A stretch of DNA of 64,000 bases from the human T2T-CHM13v2.0 reference genome, Homo sapiens. Positions 2,537-46,147 of the stretch are shown one piece after another. Each line of letters starts with the position of its first letter. Position 1 is the first letter of the stretch. Under the pieces are notes generated by a model, which was not told where the DNA came from, searched no databases, and saw nothing but the letters and a program-made list of their open reading frames with translations. Position numbers and translations under genes: made by a program. The stretch spans positions 26,880,001 through 26,944,000 of the forward strand of contig CP068257.2 in the NCBI GenBank assembly GCA_009914755.4, given 5' to 3'.

Positions 2537-2895
2537 CTCTAGGCCCCTACAAAACATATTGTCTGGGTTCCAGATTATTTTCATTTCCTTATCAATTTAA
2601 TATCTCAGAAATTAAAATCAAAGTTCTAAAAATATCCCCAATCACTATTGACATTTGAGTGCCCAAAGGCAATGGTAAATCCAATTTATAGTAGAACTGA
2701 TTTGAAGAATATTATGAACAAATGAGAAATGTGAGAACATTTAACTGTCTCAGAATCATTGAATTTTAGAGTTAGAGAGAACTTCAGATATCTTGTTCAA
2801 TGTTTTCCAAAATGTATTTCACTGACCACTCATCCCACAATATATTCCATCATAAAAGGGTTCTATGCCAAGTCATCATAAAGAGACTACACTTT

Positions 2896-3076
2896 ATTTT
2901 TTTATTATTTATTTATTTTTTTGAAACAGGGTCTTACTCTGTTGCCCAGGCTGGAGTGCAGTGGCCCCATCATGGCTCACTGCAGCCTTGACCTCCCTGG
3001 GCTCAGGTGATTCTCCTGCCTCAGCCTCCCAAGTAGCTGGGACCACAGGCATGCGCCACCATACCCAGCTAATTTC
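2896..3076 (-). repeat. Alu SINE (AluJ/S-like) right-arm portion in reverse orientation with poly-T leader; element is split by an insertion at 3077
   Basis: ttttt..gaaacagggtcttactctgttgcccaggctggagtgcagtgg...cctcagcctcccaagtagctgggaccacaggcatgcgccaccatacccagctaattt is the reverse complement of the Alu 3' half. Confidence 0.75.
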
Positions 3077-3307
3077 TGGGCCTGGGTTGGCTTCTCTCTA
3101 GCTATTTGACTTTAGGTGAATCACCCCAACCTTCTGATTTCCAGTTTTCTCATTAGCAAAATGAATGGGTTGAATTAGATCAATGTTTCCTCCAAAAGGA
3201 CCTGTGATTAAATGAGTTTGGGGGGAAAGGAGGTAAAGATAAGCAGTGGTCTATACTGCGTTGATTCTGAAACCATTTCCACAGAGTCATCCACCACAGA
3301 TTTACCC
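3077..3307. repeat. Inverted-duplication arm 1 (inverted copy of 4261-4495), inserted inside the Alu
   Basis: Reverse complement of 4261-4495 aligns to this segment with only ~7 mismatches over ~230 bp by eye. Confidence 0.7.
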
Positions 3308-3390
3308 AGTATATTTGGAGAGAGGGGGGTTTGTCACGTTGCCCAGACTGGTCTCAAACTCCTGGGCTCAAGCTATTTGCCCTCCTGTAG
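3308..3390 (-). repeat. Continuation of the split Alu (left-arm part, reverse orientation)
   Basis: gtatatttggagagaggggggtttgtcacgttgcccagactggtctcaaactcctgggctcaagctatttgccctcc matches Alu reverse complement gtatttttagtagagacggggtttcaccgtgttagccaggatggtctcgatctcctgacctc..., resuming almost exactly where 2896-3076 stops. Confidence 0.55.
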
Positions 3391-3779
3391 ACATCAGCAA
3401 ATCAGCCCTGTGCATTTTAAATAAACCAGACCTGTTTTGCATGCCAGTGATTCTCAAATTGTAAAGAACACAGTAATCACCTGGGGGTCTTGCAGAAGTG
3501 CAGATTCTGATTAAGAAGGTCTGGGTGGAATCCAGGAATTAGCATTTTTAACAAGCTCTCAGTGCTGCTGCCGCTGTTGGTCCTGGATCATATATTCTGA
3601 GACAAGGCTAGAGAAGGCACTGCAACCTCGGACAGCACAGGGGTGAGAGTGTGCAGGTAGGTAGGGCCATACCAGTTGTGAAAATATTGACATACTTCCA
3701 TGCTGACTGATAAGTAACCACTGAAGGAGCATCCAGACTCCCCAGGATCCAGAAACAAACACCAGATTCCACTTGGGGG

Positions 3780-4135
3780 TGATATGGTTTGGCTGTGTCC
3801 CCACCCAAATCTCACCTTGAACTGTAATAATCCCCATGTGTGAAGGGTGGGGCCAGGTGGAGATAATTGAATCATGGGGGTGGTTTCCCCCATACTCTTC
3901 TCGTGGTAGTGAATAAGTCTCATGAGATCTGATGATTTTATAAGTGGGAGTTCCACTACACAAGCCCTTCTTCTTGCTACCATGTAAGACATGACTTTCC
4001 TCCTCCTTCACTTCTGCCATGATTGTGAGGCCTTCCCGGTCATGTAGAACTGTGAGAATTAAACCTCTTTCCTTTATAAATTACCCAGTCTTGGGTGTGT
4101 CTTTATCAGCAGCATGAGAACAGACTAGTAGAGGG
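3780..4135 (+). mobile_element. MaLR solo LTR (THE1/MST-like)
   Basis: tgatatggtttggctgtgtccccacccaaatctcaccttgaactgtaataatccccatgtgtgaagggtggggccaggtggagataattgaatcatggggg ... ctttataaattacccagtcttgggtgtgtctttatcagcagcatgagaacagactag: start and end motifs of the THE1 LTR consensus as I recall it. Confidence 0.65.
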
Positions 4136-4260
4136 GGTCTCAGAGCCACTTCAGAGTTGCAGCCAGCATTCATTCTGATTGGTCAATGACAGGCTGAACA
4201 GTTGTTTACTGTTTAAAGTAGGTTACCCTGGAAAAGGTCTTACCAGACAGGCAGCTCCCA

Positions 4261-4495
4261 GTAAATCTGTGGTGGATGACTCTGTGGAAATGGTTTCAGA
4301 ATCAATGCAGTATAGACCCCTGCTTATCTTTACCTCCTTTTCCCCCAGACTCATTTAATCACAGGTCCTTTTGGAGGAAACATTGATCTAATTCAACCCA
4401 TTCATTTTGCTAATGAGAAAACTGGAAATCAGAAGGTTGGGGTGATTCACCTAAAGTCATATAGCTAGAGAGAAGCCAACACAGGCCCAGAAATC
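4261..4495. repeat. Inverted-duplication arm 2 (probable original copy)
   Basis: Reverse complement matches 3077-3307 at ~97% identity. Confidence 0.7.
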
Positions 4496-7400
4496 CGTTC
4501 TTCTCACTCTCACAGTCATGCCCAATTGAGTTTTCCTAATATATAAGATGGTTTAGTTCAGCAATTGTAGAAGAGGGATAACCTATAAAGCTTATATTGC
4601 AAACCAGGTAAACTATCTGAATTAGCATTACTTTAAAGAAGAATCTCTATTTCTTTAACTCCAAACCCTCAGCTACGAAATATATTTTTATCAGGGTTAT
4701 AGAGGTATTATGTGAAAATTCTACTGTATCTAAAATCTTCAGGTCATGCTGTCCAAAACCCCTCACCAGAGATGCAGAATTGAGCTAAAGTGACTTGCTT
4801 AATGTCACCAGCACAATGGCTATTTAGTGACAAATCCAAGACCAGTACCCAGATCTCTTTACTCTCATTGTGGAGCTTGTTTCTGCAAACCGCAACTGGA
4901 TTCACTTTAGTTTTCTAAAGGAAGTATCTGAATGAATGACTGTTTAGCACAGCCCAAGCTGCTGTGTAACTAGGTCACTGAATACAAGTTTACTTTTCTT
5001 AAGAACAAGGTGTGAACAACCACCATCTGAGCATGAATGAGACCTGCAATGGTGTACTATAGGCTTGAGGAAACTGCCCTCTGCTGGGATGCAGTGATGC
5101 TGCCTTTCACCATACCTTTAAAAGAAGGACTGAACTATTAAATATTCCCCGAGGTTCAATGAGGAATAAAGGAGGCACGCAGAGATATTGGTACACGGAA
5201 GCAAAACGTTTTGCCATATGCCTTCTTAGAAAATTATTTTCCAGCTGCAGTCAAATTCCCTTTAACAACTGCATCTGCATTTGTAACCCCTACGCAGCAT
5301 CCCGGCTGCTCCACGATGGCCTTGGGGGATATCTGTTACAGGGCTGGATGCCCTCTTATGAGAAATCTGGGAGTTGTATGCCCTGATTCTCACCCACCTC
5401 AAACCAAGAGGACACAGTGGTTACCGTTGTGTGTTACCAGATAAGGTTACAGAAGGGATCAGAGAGGTGTCTGTGATTCAGTTCAAGGCCAAGGTAATTG
5501 CTACAACTTCAGCACTGAAGCGTTTTACAAAGGAAATAGCACCATCAGGTTGCAACACTGGTTTTCCTGTTCAATCTTAAAAAGGAACTGCCCTCAATAA
5601 ATCATCTTCCTAATGGAAATGACAGAATTATTCTCCCAGGAGGACAATACAAACCACACATCCCTCTTAATAGGAAGGAAACACAGAGCCACAGCTGCCT
5701 GGGAGGATCCAAGGCTTCCAAGGGATTTGTTTCCCCTTTGTCCCTCTGAGGTCACTTTTTACAAATTTTCTAAGTCATTGTTTACATGTAAACATAGACC
5801 CCCATCTCCTCAAATATGTTGTCTGTTTCATTTTTTTCTAAAAACTATGTCTATGGTTAATGTAAGGGAAAAAAATCATCATATATCTAAAGCAAAAAGT
5901 AAAGTTGTAAATCAGAGTAAGGTATGTTTTTGTTAATAATGCCAATAAAATTAAATGCAAAAAAACAGAGTGGTAGCTTTTGGAGAAGACTGTGTGATTA
6001 TCTCTCCTTCTGCGTTTGTCTTATTTTTAAATATTGTATATTTTTATAATTGGATTATAAAATTCTTGTTATTTAAAATCATTTATTCGATCATGTATAA
6101 TCTACCACAAGGGTTTGATGCATACCAATATCACTAGCAACTTTTAAAAGTGGAGCAGAAATATATAGATCATATAATGGGATTTTAAAACCAGAACTAA
6201 TAATTCACTTTCACGTTCTCTATCAATTGCATTACGTTTATTAAGAATTAGTAATAAACTTTGCATATGGCATTTGGCAAAGAAACTTCAATTCATTTCT
6301 TTAAAAATGAATTTGTTAGAACTCCAGGTTTCTTTTCCAATCAAAACTTTAGGAAATGCCACTCCCAAACCAACTGAACAGCCAGGCTTTTGGTTTCTGA
6401 GAAATTCTTGCCCAGGTCACCAGAGAATGAAAGGTCAACTTTGAGGAAGTTTCTGGAACAAGGAAGAATATCAGTGAAATTGGCTGGAATTTTTTGAGCG
6501 GTGAAAAAAAAAATCCCTTGACTATTAAGTAAGCTATATGTGAGTAAGGTCACAGTTTTATCAAATTCATCCTGGGCATTTGGTCAGATCCTTTGAAACT
6601 TTTTCCCATGGTTAACATTCTATTTTGTTGCATTTTTGGCATGATGACTAAGAGATTTGGGGCACTGGCCCAAAAATCATAATTTTTTTTTGTTGTTGTT
6701 GTTATAACAAATTAATAAATTAGAGGAAATAGGTGTTCTTTTTTTTTTTTTGGAAATTCACAATGAATAGCCTACTTTGGGGAGAAAAACATCACAATTT
6801 GTTACATGTTCTTTTTGCATTCTTAATTTTTATTTTTTCTGCCATGATAAATCTTATGGAGCTCTTAAACAGAAGCGTTTTCCAAATACGGTTCTTAAGA
6901 CCCTACAGTTTTCTCCCGCTTCCATCTAAAGATCTGCATGAAGCCAAAGTTTCTTTATATGTTTCATCCAAAATAACATGTTGTAATAGACTGAATGCAG
7001 AAGCAGATAAAAGAAATTGTCTTCTATTAAGCCAGACATAAAAGATTTTCAAAAATGTGAAACAATGACGTTTTCTCACTTTCCTTGTTTCAAAAAATAG
7101 TTACTTTTCACAGAAATATGTCATTTATGGAAATAAATTTAGTATTTTTCATTAATTGCTTTTGTCCATTACTATTATTTGTAATGTATTAGTAAATACA
7201 TATTTTTTATTTTCTCAGTATTAATTTCAAATACAGTAAATAGCAACAGAAAGAACCAACCGAAATAGAAACTCTTTGGGATCCTCAAATTTCTAACAAT
7301 GTAAGAAGGTCCTAAGATCAAAAAGTATGAGAATTTCTAAGATAGAGAAGCCCCTTCCTTTTTAAGTTTCATGTACACGTTTCTGGCGGGAATAGAGCCT

Positions 7401-21025: not shown

Positions 21026-21347
<322 letters not shown>

Positions 21348-25245: not shown

Positions 25246-25628
<383 letters not shown>

Positions 25629-39723: not shown

Positions 39724-43880
<4,157 letters not shown>

Positions 43881-46132
43881 CTGAACAATGAGGACACATG
43901 GACACAGGAAGGGGAACAACACTTTTACTGGGCCTGTCAGAGGAGGGAGGTGGGGAAGAAAGCAATAGGGAAAAGAGCTAATGCATGCTGGGCTTAATAG
44001 GTAGGTGACGGGTTGATAGTTGCAGCAAACCACCATGGCACATGTTTTTCTATGTAACAAACATGCACATCCTGCACATGTACCCTGGAACTTAAAAAAT
44101 ACAAATAAAATACTTATTTTTAAAAAAAGACAGAGTTGCCAGTGGCATTTAAAAAAAAAAAATTCATTCATCTGCTGTCTTCAAGAGATCCACTTCACAT
44201 GTAATGACACACAGGCTCAAAGTAAAGGGTTGCAGAAAGATCTACCATGCAAACGGCAAACAAAAAAGAGCAGGGGATGCTATTTTTATATCGGATGAAG
44301 GAGATTTTCAAACTAACAACAGTAAAAAAGAACAAAGAAGGACATTACATAATGATAAAGGGTTGAATTCAAAAGACTAACCTATCCTAAATATATATGC
44401 GCCCAACACTGGAGCACCTAGATTCATAAAACAAATTCTTGGAGACTTATTAAGAGACACCAATAACCACACAATAATACTGGGAGATTTCAACACCCCA
44501 CTACAATTTTAGACAGATCACCAAGGCAGAATACTAACAAAGATATTCAGGACCTAAACTTGACACTTGACCAAATGCATCTAATGACATCTACAAAACA
44601 CTCCACCCAACAAAAACAGAATATATATTCTTCTCATGTGCAAATGGCACATACTCTAAAATTGACCACATGCTCGGCCATAAATCAAGTCTCAAAAAAG
44701 TCAAAAAACTTTCAAAATCATACGAACCACACTCTTGAACCACAGGACAATAAAAATAGAAACCAATACCAAAAAAGCTCTCTCAGAACCATGCAGTTAT
44801 ATGGAAATTAAACAATATACTCCTGAATGACTTTTGGGTAAATAGTGAAATTATGACAGAAATCAAGAACTAATGAAACTGATGAAAACAAGATACAACA
44901 TACCAGAATCTCTGAGACACCGCTAAAGTAGTGATAAGAGGAAGTTTAGAGTGCTAAATGCCCACATCAAAAAATTGAAAAGATCTTAAATTAGCAACCT
45001 AACATGACACATAGAGGAAACAGAATAAAAAGAGCAAACCAATTCCAAAGCTAGCAGAATAAAAGATATAATCAAAATCAGAGCTGAACTGAATGAAATG
45101 AAGATGAGAAAAAACATGATATTCCAAAGATCAGAATGAAACCAAAAGTTAATTTTTTAAAGAATAAATAAGATTTATAGACTTATAACTAGACTAATAA
45201 AGAAAAAAGGGAGAAGATCCAAATAAACACAATCAGAAATGACAAAGGGAGCATTACCATTGATCCCACAAAAATACAAAAAAAAAAAAAACCCTCAGAG
45301 ACCATTAGGAACACTTTTATGCACACAAACTAGAAAACCTAGAAGAAATAGATAAATTCCTGGAAACATACAACCTCTTAAGATAAAACCAGGAAGAAAC
45401 TGAATACCTGAACAGACCAATAACAAATTCTGAAATTGAATCAGTAATAAACAGCCTACCAAGCAAAAAAAAAAAAAAAAAAGCCCCCGGACCAGAACGA
45501 TTCACAGCCAAATTCTACCAGATGTATACAGAAGAACTGGCACCAGTCCTATTGAAATTATAAAATATTGAAAGGGAGAGACTCCTCTCTAACTCATTCT
45601 ATGAGGCCAGAATCATTTTGATACCAAAATCTAGCAGAGACACCACAAAAAAAAAAATTTAGGCCAATGTGCCTAATGAACATAGATGCACAAATCCTCA
45701 ACAAAATGCTAGCAAACCAAATCCAGCAGCACATCAAAAAGCTAATCCACCAACATCAAGTAGGCCTTATTTCTGGGGTGCAAGGTTGGTCCAACATATG
45801 CAAATCAACACATGTTATTCACTACATAAACACAACTGAAAACAAAAAACATATGATCATCTGAAATACATACAGAATAGGCTTTTTCTAAACTTAACAT
45901 CCCTTCATGTTGAAAATTCTGAACAAACTAGGCATGAAGGTACATACCTCAAAATAATAAAAGCTATCTATGACAAATTCACAGCCAACATCATACTGAA
46001 CAGGCAAAAGCTGGAAACGTTCCCCTTGAGAACTGGGACAAGATAAGGATGTCTGCTCTCACCACTCCTATTCAACATAATACTGGAAGTTCTAGCCAGA
46101 GAAGTGAGGCAAGAGAAAGAAATAAAAAGCAT

Positions 46133-46147
46133 GAAAATAGGAAGAGA
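46133..46147 (+). repeat. Target-site duplication, 5' copy (gaaaataggaagaga) of the SVA insertion
   Basis: Identical 15-mer recurs at 47971-47985; L1 ORF2 reading (..KSMKIGRE | ..IGKEEIQTISL..) is continuous across the insertion when one TSD copy is removed. Confidence 0.85.

What the first reader, a model, noticed from the sequence alone, without database searches (positions are those of the whole stretch)
2896..4495. Young ~230-bp inverted duplication: one arm is inserted into an Alu, a THE1-like LTR sits in the spacer
Segment 3077-3307 is the reverse complement of 4261-4495, with only about seven mismatches by eye (~97% identity).

The left arm interrupts a reverse-oriented Alu almost seamlessly. 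The Alu sequence stops at gctaattt (3076) and resumes at gtatatttggagagagggggg (3308). So this arm was inserted after the Alu landed. The right arm has no Alu on its far side, so it is probably the original copy.

The ~950-bp spacer contains a THE1/MST-like solo LTR (3780-4135). Arms this similar at this spacing form a fold-back structure. That structure could extrude as a hairpin or cruciform, drive gene conversion between the arms, or act as a fragile or rearrangement-prone site.

The track's 153-aa ORF at 3559-4020 lies inside this structure and is an LTR artefact.

Mechanistically this looks like a template-switch (FoSTeS/MMBIR-type) or hairpin-mediated inverted duplication rather than a TIR transposon.
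Basis: seen in the sequence. Interest (0 to 1): 0.5.

Follow-up and report, generated by a model that had tools for sequence, protein, structure and literature searches.

The report
Old inverted copy pasted into Alu
About 230 bases of ordinary ancient-repeat DNA were copied backwards into a break inside a neighbouring Alu element roughly 1 kb away; this is a clean but ordinary scar of error-prone DNA replication or repair in an ape ancestor, not a functional element.

Summary
Window 3072-3305 is the ungapped reverse complement of 4261-4494: 234 nt, 6 mismatches, 97.4% identity, 955-nt spacer. It is the most similar repeat pair in the 64-kb window; independent Alus there reach 90.5% at most.

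The left arm splits a minus-strand AluJ-like element in its T-rich linker. With 3076-3308 removed, the two Alu parts align as one continuous Alu, with at most 2 nt missing. There is no target-site duplication and no poly(A). The left junction shares 4 nt (ATTT) with the flank of the right arm. The right junction carries 3 unexplained bases (CCA).

The arms are one very old MIR copy (~59% identity to the consensus), so their 97.4% identity means local copying, not two independent insertions. The spacer holds the rest of the Alu, a MER5A-like element and a THE1B-like solo LTR with a 5-bp flanking repeat.

Best reading: a single DNA-templated, reverse-oriented template switch or fold-back repair event, a known kind. 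At 2.6% arm divergence it is probably 5-28 million years old, so not very young.

A 955-nt spacer argues against cruciform-type fragility. I could not obtain primate orthologues or a genome-wide copy count. Interest is low.

The parts
2896..3075 (-). 3' part of an AluJ-like element: A-tail (read as a T-run), right monomer and part of the A-rich linker, consensus positions about 289-131
   Evidence: Rfam Metazoa_SRP model scores 77.2 bits at 2921-3069, minus strand. Aligns to other Alus in the window.
3072..3075 (.). 4-nt microhomology ATTT at the left junction, shared by the Alu linker and by the flank of the right arm (AAAT at 4491-4494)
   Evidence: Junction alignments. Chance of 4 or more matching bases is about 0.0044.
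3076..3305 (+). Inserted copy (left arm): 230 nt, reverse complement of 4261-4490. The sequence is an old MIR copy in + orientation (about consensus positions 46-207).
   Evidence: MIR alignment scores 59-78 against a shuffle maximum of 36.
3306..3308 (.). 3-nt filler CCA at the right junction, belonging neither to the Alu nor to the source
   Evidence: Candidate nearby templates are no better than chance.
3309..3386 (-). 5' part of the same AluJ-like element (consensus positions 127-50); the Alu is 5'-truncated
   Evidence: Subject coordinates in another Alu run from 25428 (left part) to 25431 (right part), so they are contiguous to within 2 nt.
3445..3602 (+). MER5A-like DNA-transposon relic in the spacer
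   Evidence: Sub-threshold Rfam mir-544 match at 3476-3571.
3780..4132 (+). THE1B-like (MaLR) solo LTR in the spacer, flanked by a 5-bp direct repeat GGGGG (3775-3779 and 4133-4137)
   Evidence: 84% identity over consensus positions 1-362, score 479 against a shuffle maximum of 30. The flanking repeat is read directly from the sequence.
4261..4494 (-). Right arm: the presumed source copy of the MIR-derived segment, including the AAAT microhomology at 4491-4494
3559..4020 (-). 153-aa ORF, spurious. It runs across the MER5A-like relic, unclassified spacer and part of the LTR.
   Evidence: No Pfam family at E<=1. No gene with this exact product is on record in the assembly collection.

Best explanation
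This is a single ancient mutational event, not a functional element. In an ape ancestor, a stalled fork or break arose in the T-rich linker of a resident AluJ-like element (ancestral sequence ...GCTAATTT(TT)GTATATTT...). A free 3' end then used DNA about 1-1.2 kb away on the same chromosome as a template, in reverse orientation. It copied 230 nt of an old MIR-derived segment (4490 down to 4261) and was rejoined to the Alu.

In the four-point template-switch notation this is type 1-4-3-2: an inverted repeat is created and the spacer is not inverted. One junction used 4 nt of microhomology (ATTT). The other was sealed with 3 extra bases (CCA). The Alu lost at most 2 nt.

Two sub-variants give the same product and cannot be told apart here. 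(a) At a fork, the leading-strand end switches to the lagging-strand template (FoSTeS/MMBIR-type). (b) At a double-strand break, the resected right-hand end folds back on itself, is extended, unwinds, and is captured by the other end through microhomology-mediated joining.

Shown: the anatomy, the junctions, and the order of events (Alu first, insert later). Inferred: the enzymology, the direction of synthesis and the age.
For: - Arms are 234 nt, ungapped, 97.4% identical and inverted, and occur only twice in the window.
- This is the highest-identity repeat pair in the window; independent Alus reach 90.5% at most.
- Each arm is only about 59% identical to the MIR consensus, yet the two share all their private changes.
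- With the insert excised, the Alu is continuous to within 2 nt.
- There is no target-site duplication and no poly(A).
- The left junction has 4-nt microhomology with the right arm's own flank, with chance about 0.004.
- Both Alu parts keep the same orientation, so the spacer was not inverted.
- Literature: an inverted insertion near its template, flanked by microhomology, is the stated MMBIR templated-insertion signature (PMC8421209). Type 1-4-3-2 events made up 31% of human-chimp template-switch events (PMC5453318). Great-ape template-switch events are enriched at poly(dA:dT) tracts around switch point 1 (PMC7954356). Fold-back synthesis plus end capture at breaks is documented in yeast (PMC11724301).
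Against: - The copied length (230 nt) and the template distance (about 950-1,180 nt) exceed the scales those studies searched or observed: templates within 100 nt (PMC8421209, PMC7954356) and fold-back insertions of 2 to about 150 bp (PMC11724301).
- Only one junction shows microhomology.
- With 2.6% later divergence, single-base features at the junctions may have changed since the event.
- No outgroup sequence was available, so neither the empty site nor the two-copy status genome-wide has been observed.
- An RNA template gives the same product.
Confidence: 0.7

Rival explanations
1. RNA-templated patch (class-2 templated-sequence-insertion type). A break in the Alu linker, possibly an L1 endonuclease nick in the T-run, was repaired by reverse transcription of a nascent +-strand transcript of the same locus. 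Priming on AAAU at 4491-4494 used the ATTT 3' end, and the 5' junction was sealed by end joining.
For: The junction signature matches class-2 TSIPs as described in PMC5110952: no target-site duplication, no poly(A), microhomology on one side and extra bases on the other. The insertion site is a T-run resembling the L1 endonuclease preference (sequence).
Against: Class-2 insertions are described as coming from distant loci across many chromosomes (PMC5110952). A donor only about 1 kb away in cis is what DNA template switching predicts. There is no evidence here that the locus is transcribed on the + strand.
Confidence: 0.12
2. The arms are two members of a low- or mid-copy repeat or segmental-duplication family whose master copy lies elsewhere. 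The right arm would then not be the direct source, and the inverted arrangement would be coincidental.
For: The genome-wide copy number could not be measured. Scans of metagenome, prokaryote-genome and viral collections for arm 22- and 24-mers found nothing, which is uninformative for a primate sequence.
Against: The window holds no further copy. Homology between the arms extends 4 nt beyond the insert into the flank of the right arm, as expected if that copy was the template. The insert has no target-site duplication, no poly(A) and no terminal repeats that a mobile family would leave.
Confidence: 0.08
3. Two independent MIR insertions that happen to lie in opposite orientations.
For: Both arms align to the MIR consensus.
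Against: Each arm is about 59% identical to the consensus, but the two are 97.4% identical to each other, with identical indels and end points. One arm sits inside an Alu, a primate-specific family that is much younger than MIR (established knowledge).
Confidence: 0.01
4. A TIR-type DNA transposon or MITE whose terminal inverted repeats are the two arms.
For: Long inverted termini around a roughly 1-kb interior.
Against: The second half of the interrupted Alu lies inside the structure, directly after the left arm. It does not lie beyond the right arm, where it would be if a whole element had inserted. No direct repeat flanks 3072 and 4494. The interior is a mosaic of unrelated old repeats.
Confidence: 0.01
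5. Assembly or sequencing artefact (fold-back chimera).
For: Inverted duplications are a known chimera type (own knowledge).
Against: Artefactual fold-backs give identical arms. Here the arms differ at 6 sites, including a CpG/CpA difference, and there is a 955-nt spacer of normal repeat mosaic.
Confidence: 0.02

Closest known systems
Reverse-oriented template-switch mutations: four-point model type 1-4-3-2 (Loytynoja & Goldman 2017, PMC5453318; Walker et al. 2021, PMC7954356)
   Same: [quoted passage not shown] This creates a new inverted repeat without inverting the spacer. Switch point 1 lies in a poly(dA:dT)-type tract.
   Different: Those surveys dealt with short events: fragments of about 10 bp and up, with the template required within 100 nt in Walker et al. 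Here 230 nt were copied from about 1-1.2 kb away. The ancestral state has not been observed.
MMBIR/FoSTeS templated insertions (MMB-TI; Osia et al. 2021, PMC8421209; Hastings et al. 2009, PMC2621351)
   Same: An inverted insertion close to its retained template, with junctional microhomology.
   Different: Only one junction has microhomology. There is no accompanying larger copy-number change.
Fold-back synthesis plus end capture at double-strand breaks in yeast (PMC11724301)
   Same: A local inverted templated insertion with 0-5 bp microhomology at the capture junction, which creates a longer inverted repeat.
   Different: The yeast events were 2 to about 150 bp, mostly under 14 bp, and primed at inverted microhomology right next to the break. 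Here the loop would be about 950 nt, and the presumed priming junction shows no microhomology.
Class-2 templated sequence insertion polymorphisms (PMC5110952)
   Same: No target-site duplication and no poly(A). Microhomology and extra nucleotides are present at the junctions, and a patch of a few hundred bases fills a break.
   Different: TSIP donors are distant loci and are thought to be RNA-derived. Here the donor lies about 1 kb away in cis.
Fragile long inverted repeats and quasi-palindromes (Lobachev laboratory; PMC10164571)
   Same: Arms of Alu-like length and high identity, which can pair in single-stranded DNA.
   Different: The spacer is 955 nt, against 12-100 bp for strongly fragile repeats. 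The expected effect in duplex DNA is reduced by tens to hundreds of fold. Interaction would need long single-stranded stretches.

Membership tests
Reverse-oriented template switch / MMBIR-type templated insertion | The insert is the reverse complement of a nearby sequence, which is itself retained | tested here: met
Reverse-oriented template switch / MMBIR-type templated insertion | Microhomology at the switch junctions | tested here: inconclusive
   Left junction has 4 nt (ATTT), chance about 0.004. Right junction has none and carries a 3-nt filler.
Reverse-oriented template switch / MMBIR-type templated insertion | The derived state is absent from the ancestral or outgroup sequence (an empty site is observed) | not testable with these tools
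   No primate genomes are available. Exact-product look-ups and collection scans found nothing. The empty site could only be reconstructed.
Reverse-oriented template switch / MMBIR-type templated insertion | Operational scale used in published surveys (template within about 100 nt, insert of tens of nt) | tested here: not met
   230 nt were copied, with the template 952-1,182 nt from the insertion point. This is a limit of the search methods, not of the mechanism (PMC8421209, PMC7954356).
TIR DNA transposon / MITE | Target-site duplication flanking the two terminal repeats, with host sequence continuous across the whole element | tested here: not met
   The Alu is continuous across the left arm alone. 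No flanking direct repeat is present.
L1-mediated retro-insertion (class-1 TSIP / processed copy) | Target-site duplication of at least 5 bp and a poly(A) tail on the insert | tested here: not met
   At most 2 nt of the Alu are missing, nothing is duplicated, and neither end of the insert has an A-run.
Independent interspersed-repeat copies (MIR) | Identity between the copies comparable with their identity to the family consensus | tested here: not met
   97.4% between the arms against about 59% to the consensus.
Fragile palindrome / cruciform-forming inverted repeat | Short spacer (tens of bp or less) between long, highly similar arms | tested here: not met
   The spacer is 955 nt. For the effect of spacer length see PMC10164571.
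Segmental duplication | At least 1 kb at 90% identity or more (conventional definition, own knowledge) | tested here: not met
   The arms are 234 nt, with no homology beyond them.

The most novel reading that the evidence does not exclude
This may be an intermediate-scale germline reverse template switch (230 nt copied over about 1.2 kb). That size falls between the short-range events catalogued in great apes (100 nt or less) and the kb-to-Mb MMBIR rearrangements. It left an ape-lineage-specific 234-bp near-perfect hairpin. If the locus is transcribed, the hairpin would form a long double-stranded RNA (a substrate for ADAR, Dicer or MDA5), or it could mediate a polymorphic inversion of the 955-nt spacer.
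Probability: 0.1. Interest if true: 0.35.

Novelty: new member of a known kind. Interest (0 to 1): 0.15.

Why it matters
The locus is a tidy, fully resolved example of how replication or repair errors create new inverted repeats in primate genomes. The interrupted Alu gives both the order of events and an almost exact ancestral empty site. It could serve as a marker for ape phylogeny, or as a test case for callers that currently look only for template switches within about 100 nt. Nothing suggests a function, and the predicted structural risk is small.

Tried and rejected
1. **Polarity from the MIR consensus.** I tested whether MIR homology continues past the right arm into its flanks, which would prove that arm is the original. 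The flank scores (14 and 16) are at shuffle level: 689 and 476 of 1000 shuffles reach them. Inconclusive.

2. **Secondary templating of the CCA filler.** TACCCAG at 3062 and TTACCCAGT at 4081 match the junction, but equally long matches occur at 35-63% of random control positions. Rejected as evidence of iterative switching.

3. **Gene conversion between the arms.** The longest mismatch-free run is 111 nt. Six random differences give a run that long with P = 0.12. No signal.

4. **Retrieving orthologues or other copies.** Exact-product look-ups for the 70-aa junction ORF and the 153-aa ORF found nothing. Two arm k-mers scanned against metagenome and prokaryote-genome contigs, and one against viral contigs, gave no hits. 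These collections are not expected to hold primate DNA, so absence means nothing.

5. **Large protein searches.** The exact look-ups showed that ORFs of this locus are not in that collection, and the sequence is non-coding.

6. **Coding potential of the ORFs.** No Pfam hit for any of the three ORFs tested.

7. **Direction of the six differences.** Using the MIR consensus or CpG decay as a guide, 3-4 changes look derived in the right arm and none in the left. Too few to mean anything.

Full report
**Observation**

The sequence at 2600-4900 contains one strong inverted repeat. Arms 3072-3305 and 4261-4494 are 234 nt long, 97% complementary and 955 nt apart. A base-by-base alignment is ungapped, with 6 mismatches at 3085, 3106, 3218, 3225, 3247 and 3260. 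Similarity collapses immediately outside the arms.

A sensitive BLAST of the arm against the whole 64-kb window finds only itself and the other arm (E = 3.9e-88). A self-comparison of the window shows this is its highest-identity repeat pair. The many Alu copies pair at 80-90.5%.

**Anatomy**

A wrong consensus can lower a score but cannot create one.
- 2916-3078 aligns to AluJo positions 289-128 on the minus strand (87%).
- 3386-3309 aligns to AluJo positions 50-127.
- 3080-3238 aligns to MIR positions 46-207 (59%; score 59-78 against a shuffle maximum of 36).
- 3445-3602 aligns to MER5A (66%).
- 3780-4130 aligns to the THE1B LTR, positions 1-362 (84%).

Two checks do not depend on my memory. 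Rfam's SRP model scores 77.2 bits at 2921-3069 on the minus strand. With 3076-3308 excised, the joined sequence aligns as one continuous match across the junction to eight other Alus in the window. In the Alu at about 25250-25493, the left part ends at 25428 and the right part starts at 25431. The Alu is therefore continuous to within 2 nt, inside a homopolymer run.

The LTR is flanked by GGGGG on both sides (3775-3779 and 4133-4137), as expected for a solo LTR that keeps its target-site duplication.

**Junctions**

| Junction | Sequence in the window | Reverse complement of the source |
|---|---|---|
| Left | catacccagctaATTT\|CTGGGCC... | ...gaacggATTT\|CTGGGCC... |
| Right | ...CAGATTTAC\|cca\|gtatatttgg | ...CAGATTTAC\|tgggagc... 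|

- At the left junction, 4 nt (ATTT) belong both to the Alu and to the flank of the right arm. The chance of 4 or more matching bases is about 0.004.
- At the right junction there are three bases of no identifiable origin and no microhomology. Nearby matches to this filler are at chance level.
- There is no target-site duplication, no poly(A), and at most 2 nt of the Alu were lost.
- Both Alu parts are in the same orientation, so the spacer was not inverted.

**What it is**

The arms are one old MIR copy and its duplicate. Each is about 59% identical to the MIR consensus, yet they are 97.4% identical to each other with the same end points. That rules out two independent MIR insertions.

The left arm lies inside an Alu whose other half follows it directly. 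The Alu was therefore there first, and only the left arm was inserted. This excludes a TIR transposon: a whole element inserting into the Alu would leave the Alu halves outside both arms. The lack of a target-site duplication and of a poly(A) tail excludes ordinary L1-mediated retro-insertion.

**How it arose**

The signature is an inverted copy inserted close to its retained template, with junctional microhomology. That is the one given for MMBIR-type templated insertions (PMC8421209). In the four-point model it is type 1-4-3-2, which creates an inverted repeat and made up 31% of human-chimp events (PMC5453318).

The insertion point lies in the T-rich Alu linker. This fits the enrichment of poly(dA:dT) tracts around switch point 1 in great-ape events (PMC7954356).

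A break-repair version is documented in yeast: one end folds back, is extended, unwinds, and is captured by the other end (PMC11724301). It gives the same product.

I cannot distinguish the fork version from the break version. The microhomology at the left junction alone mildly favours priming there, which points to the fork version.

An RNA-templated patch of the class-2 TSIP type has the same junction features. It is described for distant donors (PMC5110952), so I rank it lower.

**Age**

Six differences in 230 nt give K2P = 0.0266 (95% CI of the proportion: 0.0096-0.0559).
- At 1e-9 substitutions per site per year, the event is about 13 My old (range 5-28).
- At 0.5e-9 it is about 27 My old.
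- At 2.2e-9 it is about 6 My old.

The Alu (83-87% identity to consensus) and the LTR (84%) are much older. The spacer therefore already had its present length when the copy was made. 'Young' holds only relative to the surrounding repeats. The SVA element at about 46149-47859 shows that the window is hominid DNA.

**Consequences**

As single-stranded DNA, the region folds with the arms fully paired (MFE -399.5 kcal/mol). In yeast, however, widening an Alu inverted-repeat spacer from 12 bp to 100 bp lowered recombination about 300-fold. A 1.5-kb spacer lowered gross rearrangements about 31-fold relative to 12 bp. Widely spaced repeats became potent only within long single-stranded regions (PMC10164571). 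Cruciform-type fragility is therefore unlikely. Rare inversion of the spacer by recombination between the arms remains possible (inference).

The 153-aa ORF at 3559-4020 has no Pfam match. It crosses three unrelated repeat or spacer segments and is spurious.

**Limits**

No primate genome was available. Look-ups and scans of the available collections found nothing. Two decisive tests remain undone: the genome-wide copy number of the arm, and the empty site in outgroup species.

**Verdict**

This is a real, cleanly resolved, roughly 5-28-My-old templated inverted insertion. It is a further example of a known mutational class, at a somewhat larger scale than the published short-range surveys covered. 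Interest is low.

Noticed in passing
window 46149-47859 (+): A canonical SVA retrotransposon: (CTCTCC)n at 46149-46217, an antisense Alu-like part at 46267-46473, a VNTR at 46597-47271 and an A-tail at 47817-47859. It shows that the window is hominid DNA.
   Followed up: partly
window 39987-43766 and 44302-49569: Two collinear direct copies of about 3.8 kb at 76-79% identity. The first is interrupted by an Alu (40664-40968) and the second by the SVA. This is either an old tandem duplication or two adjacent copies of one interspersed family.
   Followed up: no
window 55164-55235: A perfect three-copy tandem repeat of a 24-nt unit (ATTGCACATGCCAATTTAATGGCA), with a second 24-nt repeat at 55286-55333.
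   Followed up: no
window 3775-3779 and 4133-4137: The THE1B-like solo LTR (3780-4132) is flanked by GGGGG on both sides, a likely intact 5-bp target-site duplication.
   Followed up: partly
window 3476-3571 (+): A sub-threshold Rfam mir-544 match (43.8 bits against a gathering score of 66.5) inside the MER5A-like relic. It most likely reflects the repeat's own palindromic structure, not a microRNA gene.
   Followed up: no
window 3386-3444: The interrupted Alu is 5'-truncated at about consensus position 50. It is followed by about 58 nt of unclassified sequence before the MER5A-like element. I found no convincing target-site duplication for the Alu.
   Followed up: partly
window 3085, 3218, 3247, 3260: Where the MIR consensus or CpG decay gives a direction, the differences between the arms look derived in the right (source) arm, and the inserted copy keeps the older state. 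The count is 3-4 against 0, which is not significant.
   Followed up: partly
whole window: Rfam's SRP model reaches its gathering score on only one Alu, the interrupted one at 2921-3069. BLAST, however, shows at least eight other Alu copies in the window (for example at 21044, 24841, 25257, 27443, 40664, 49575, 52699 and 59711).
   Followed up: no
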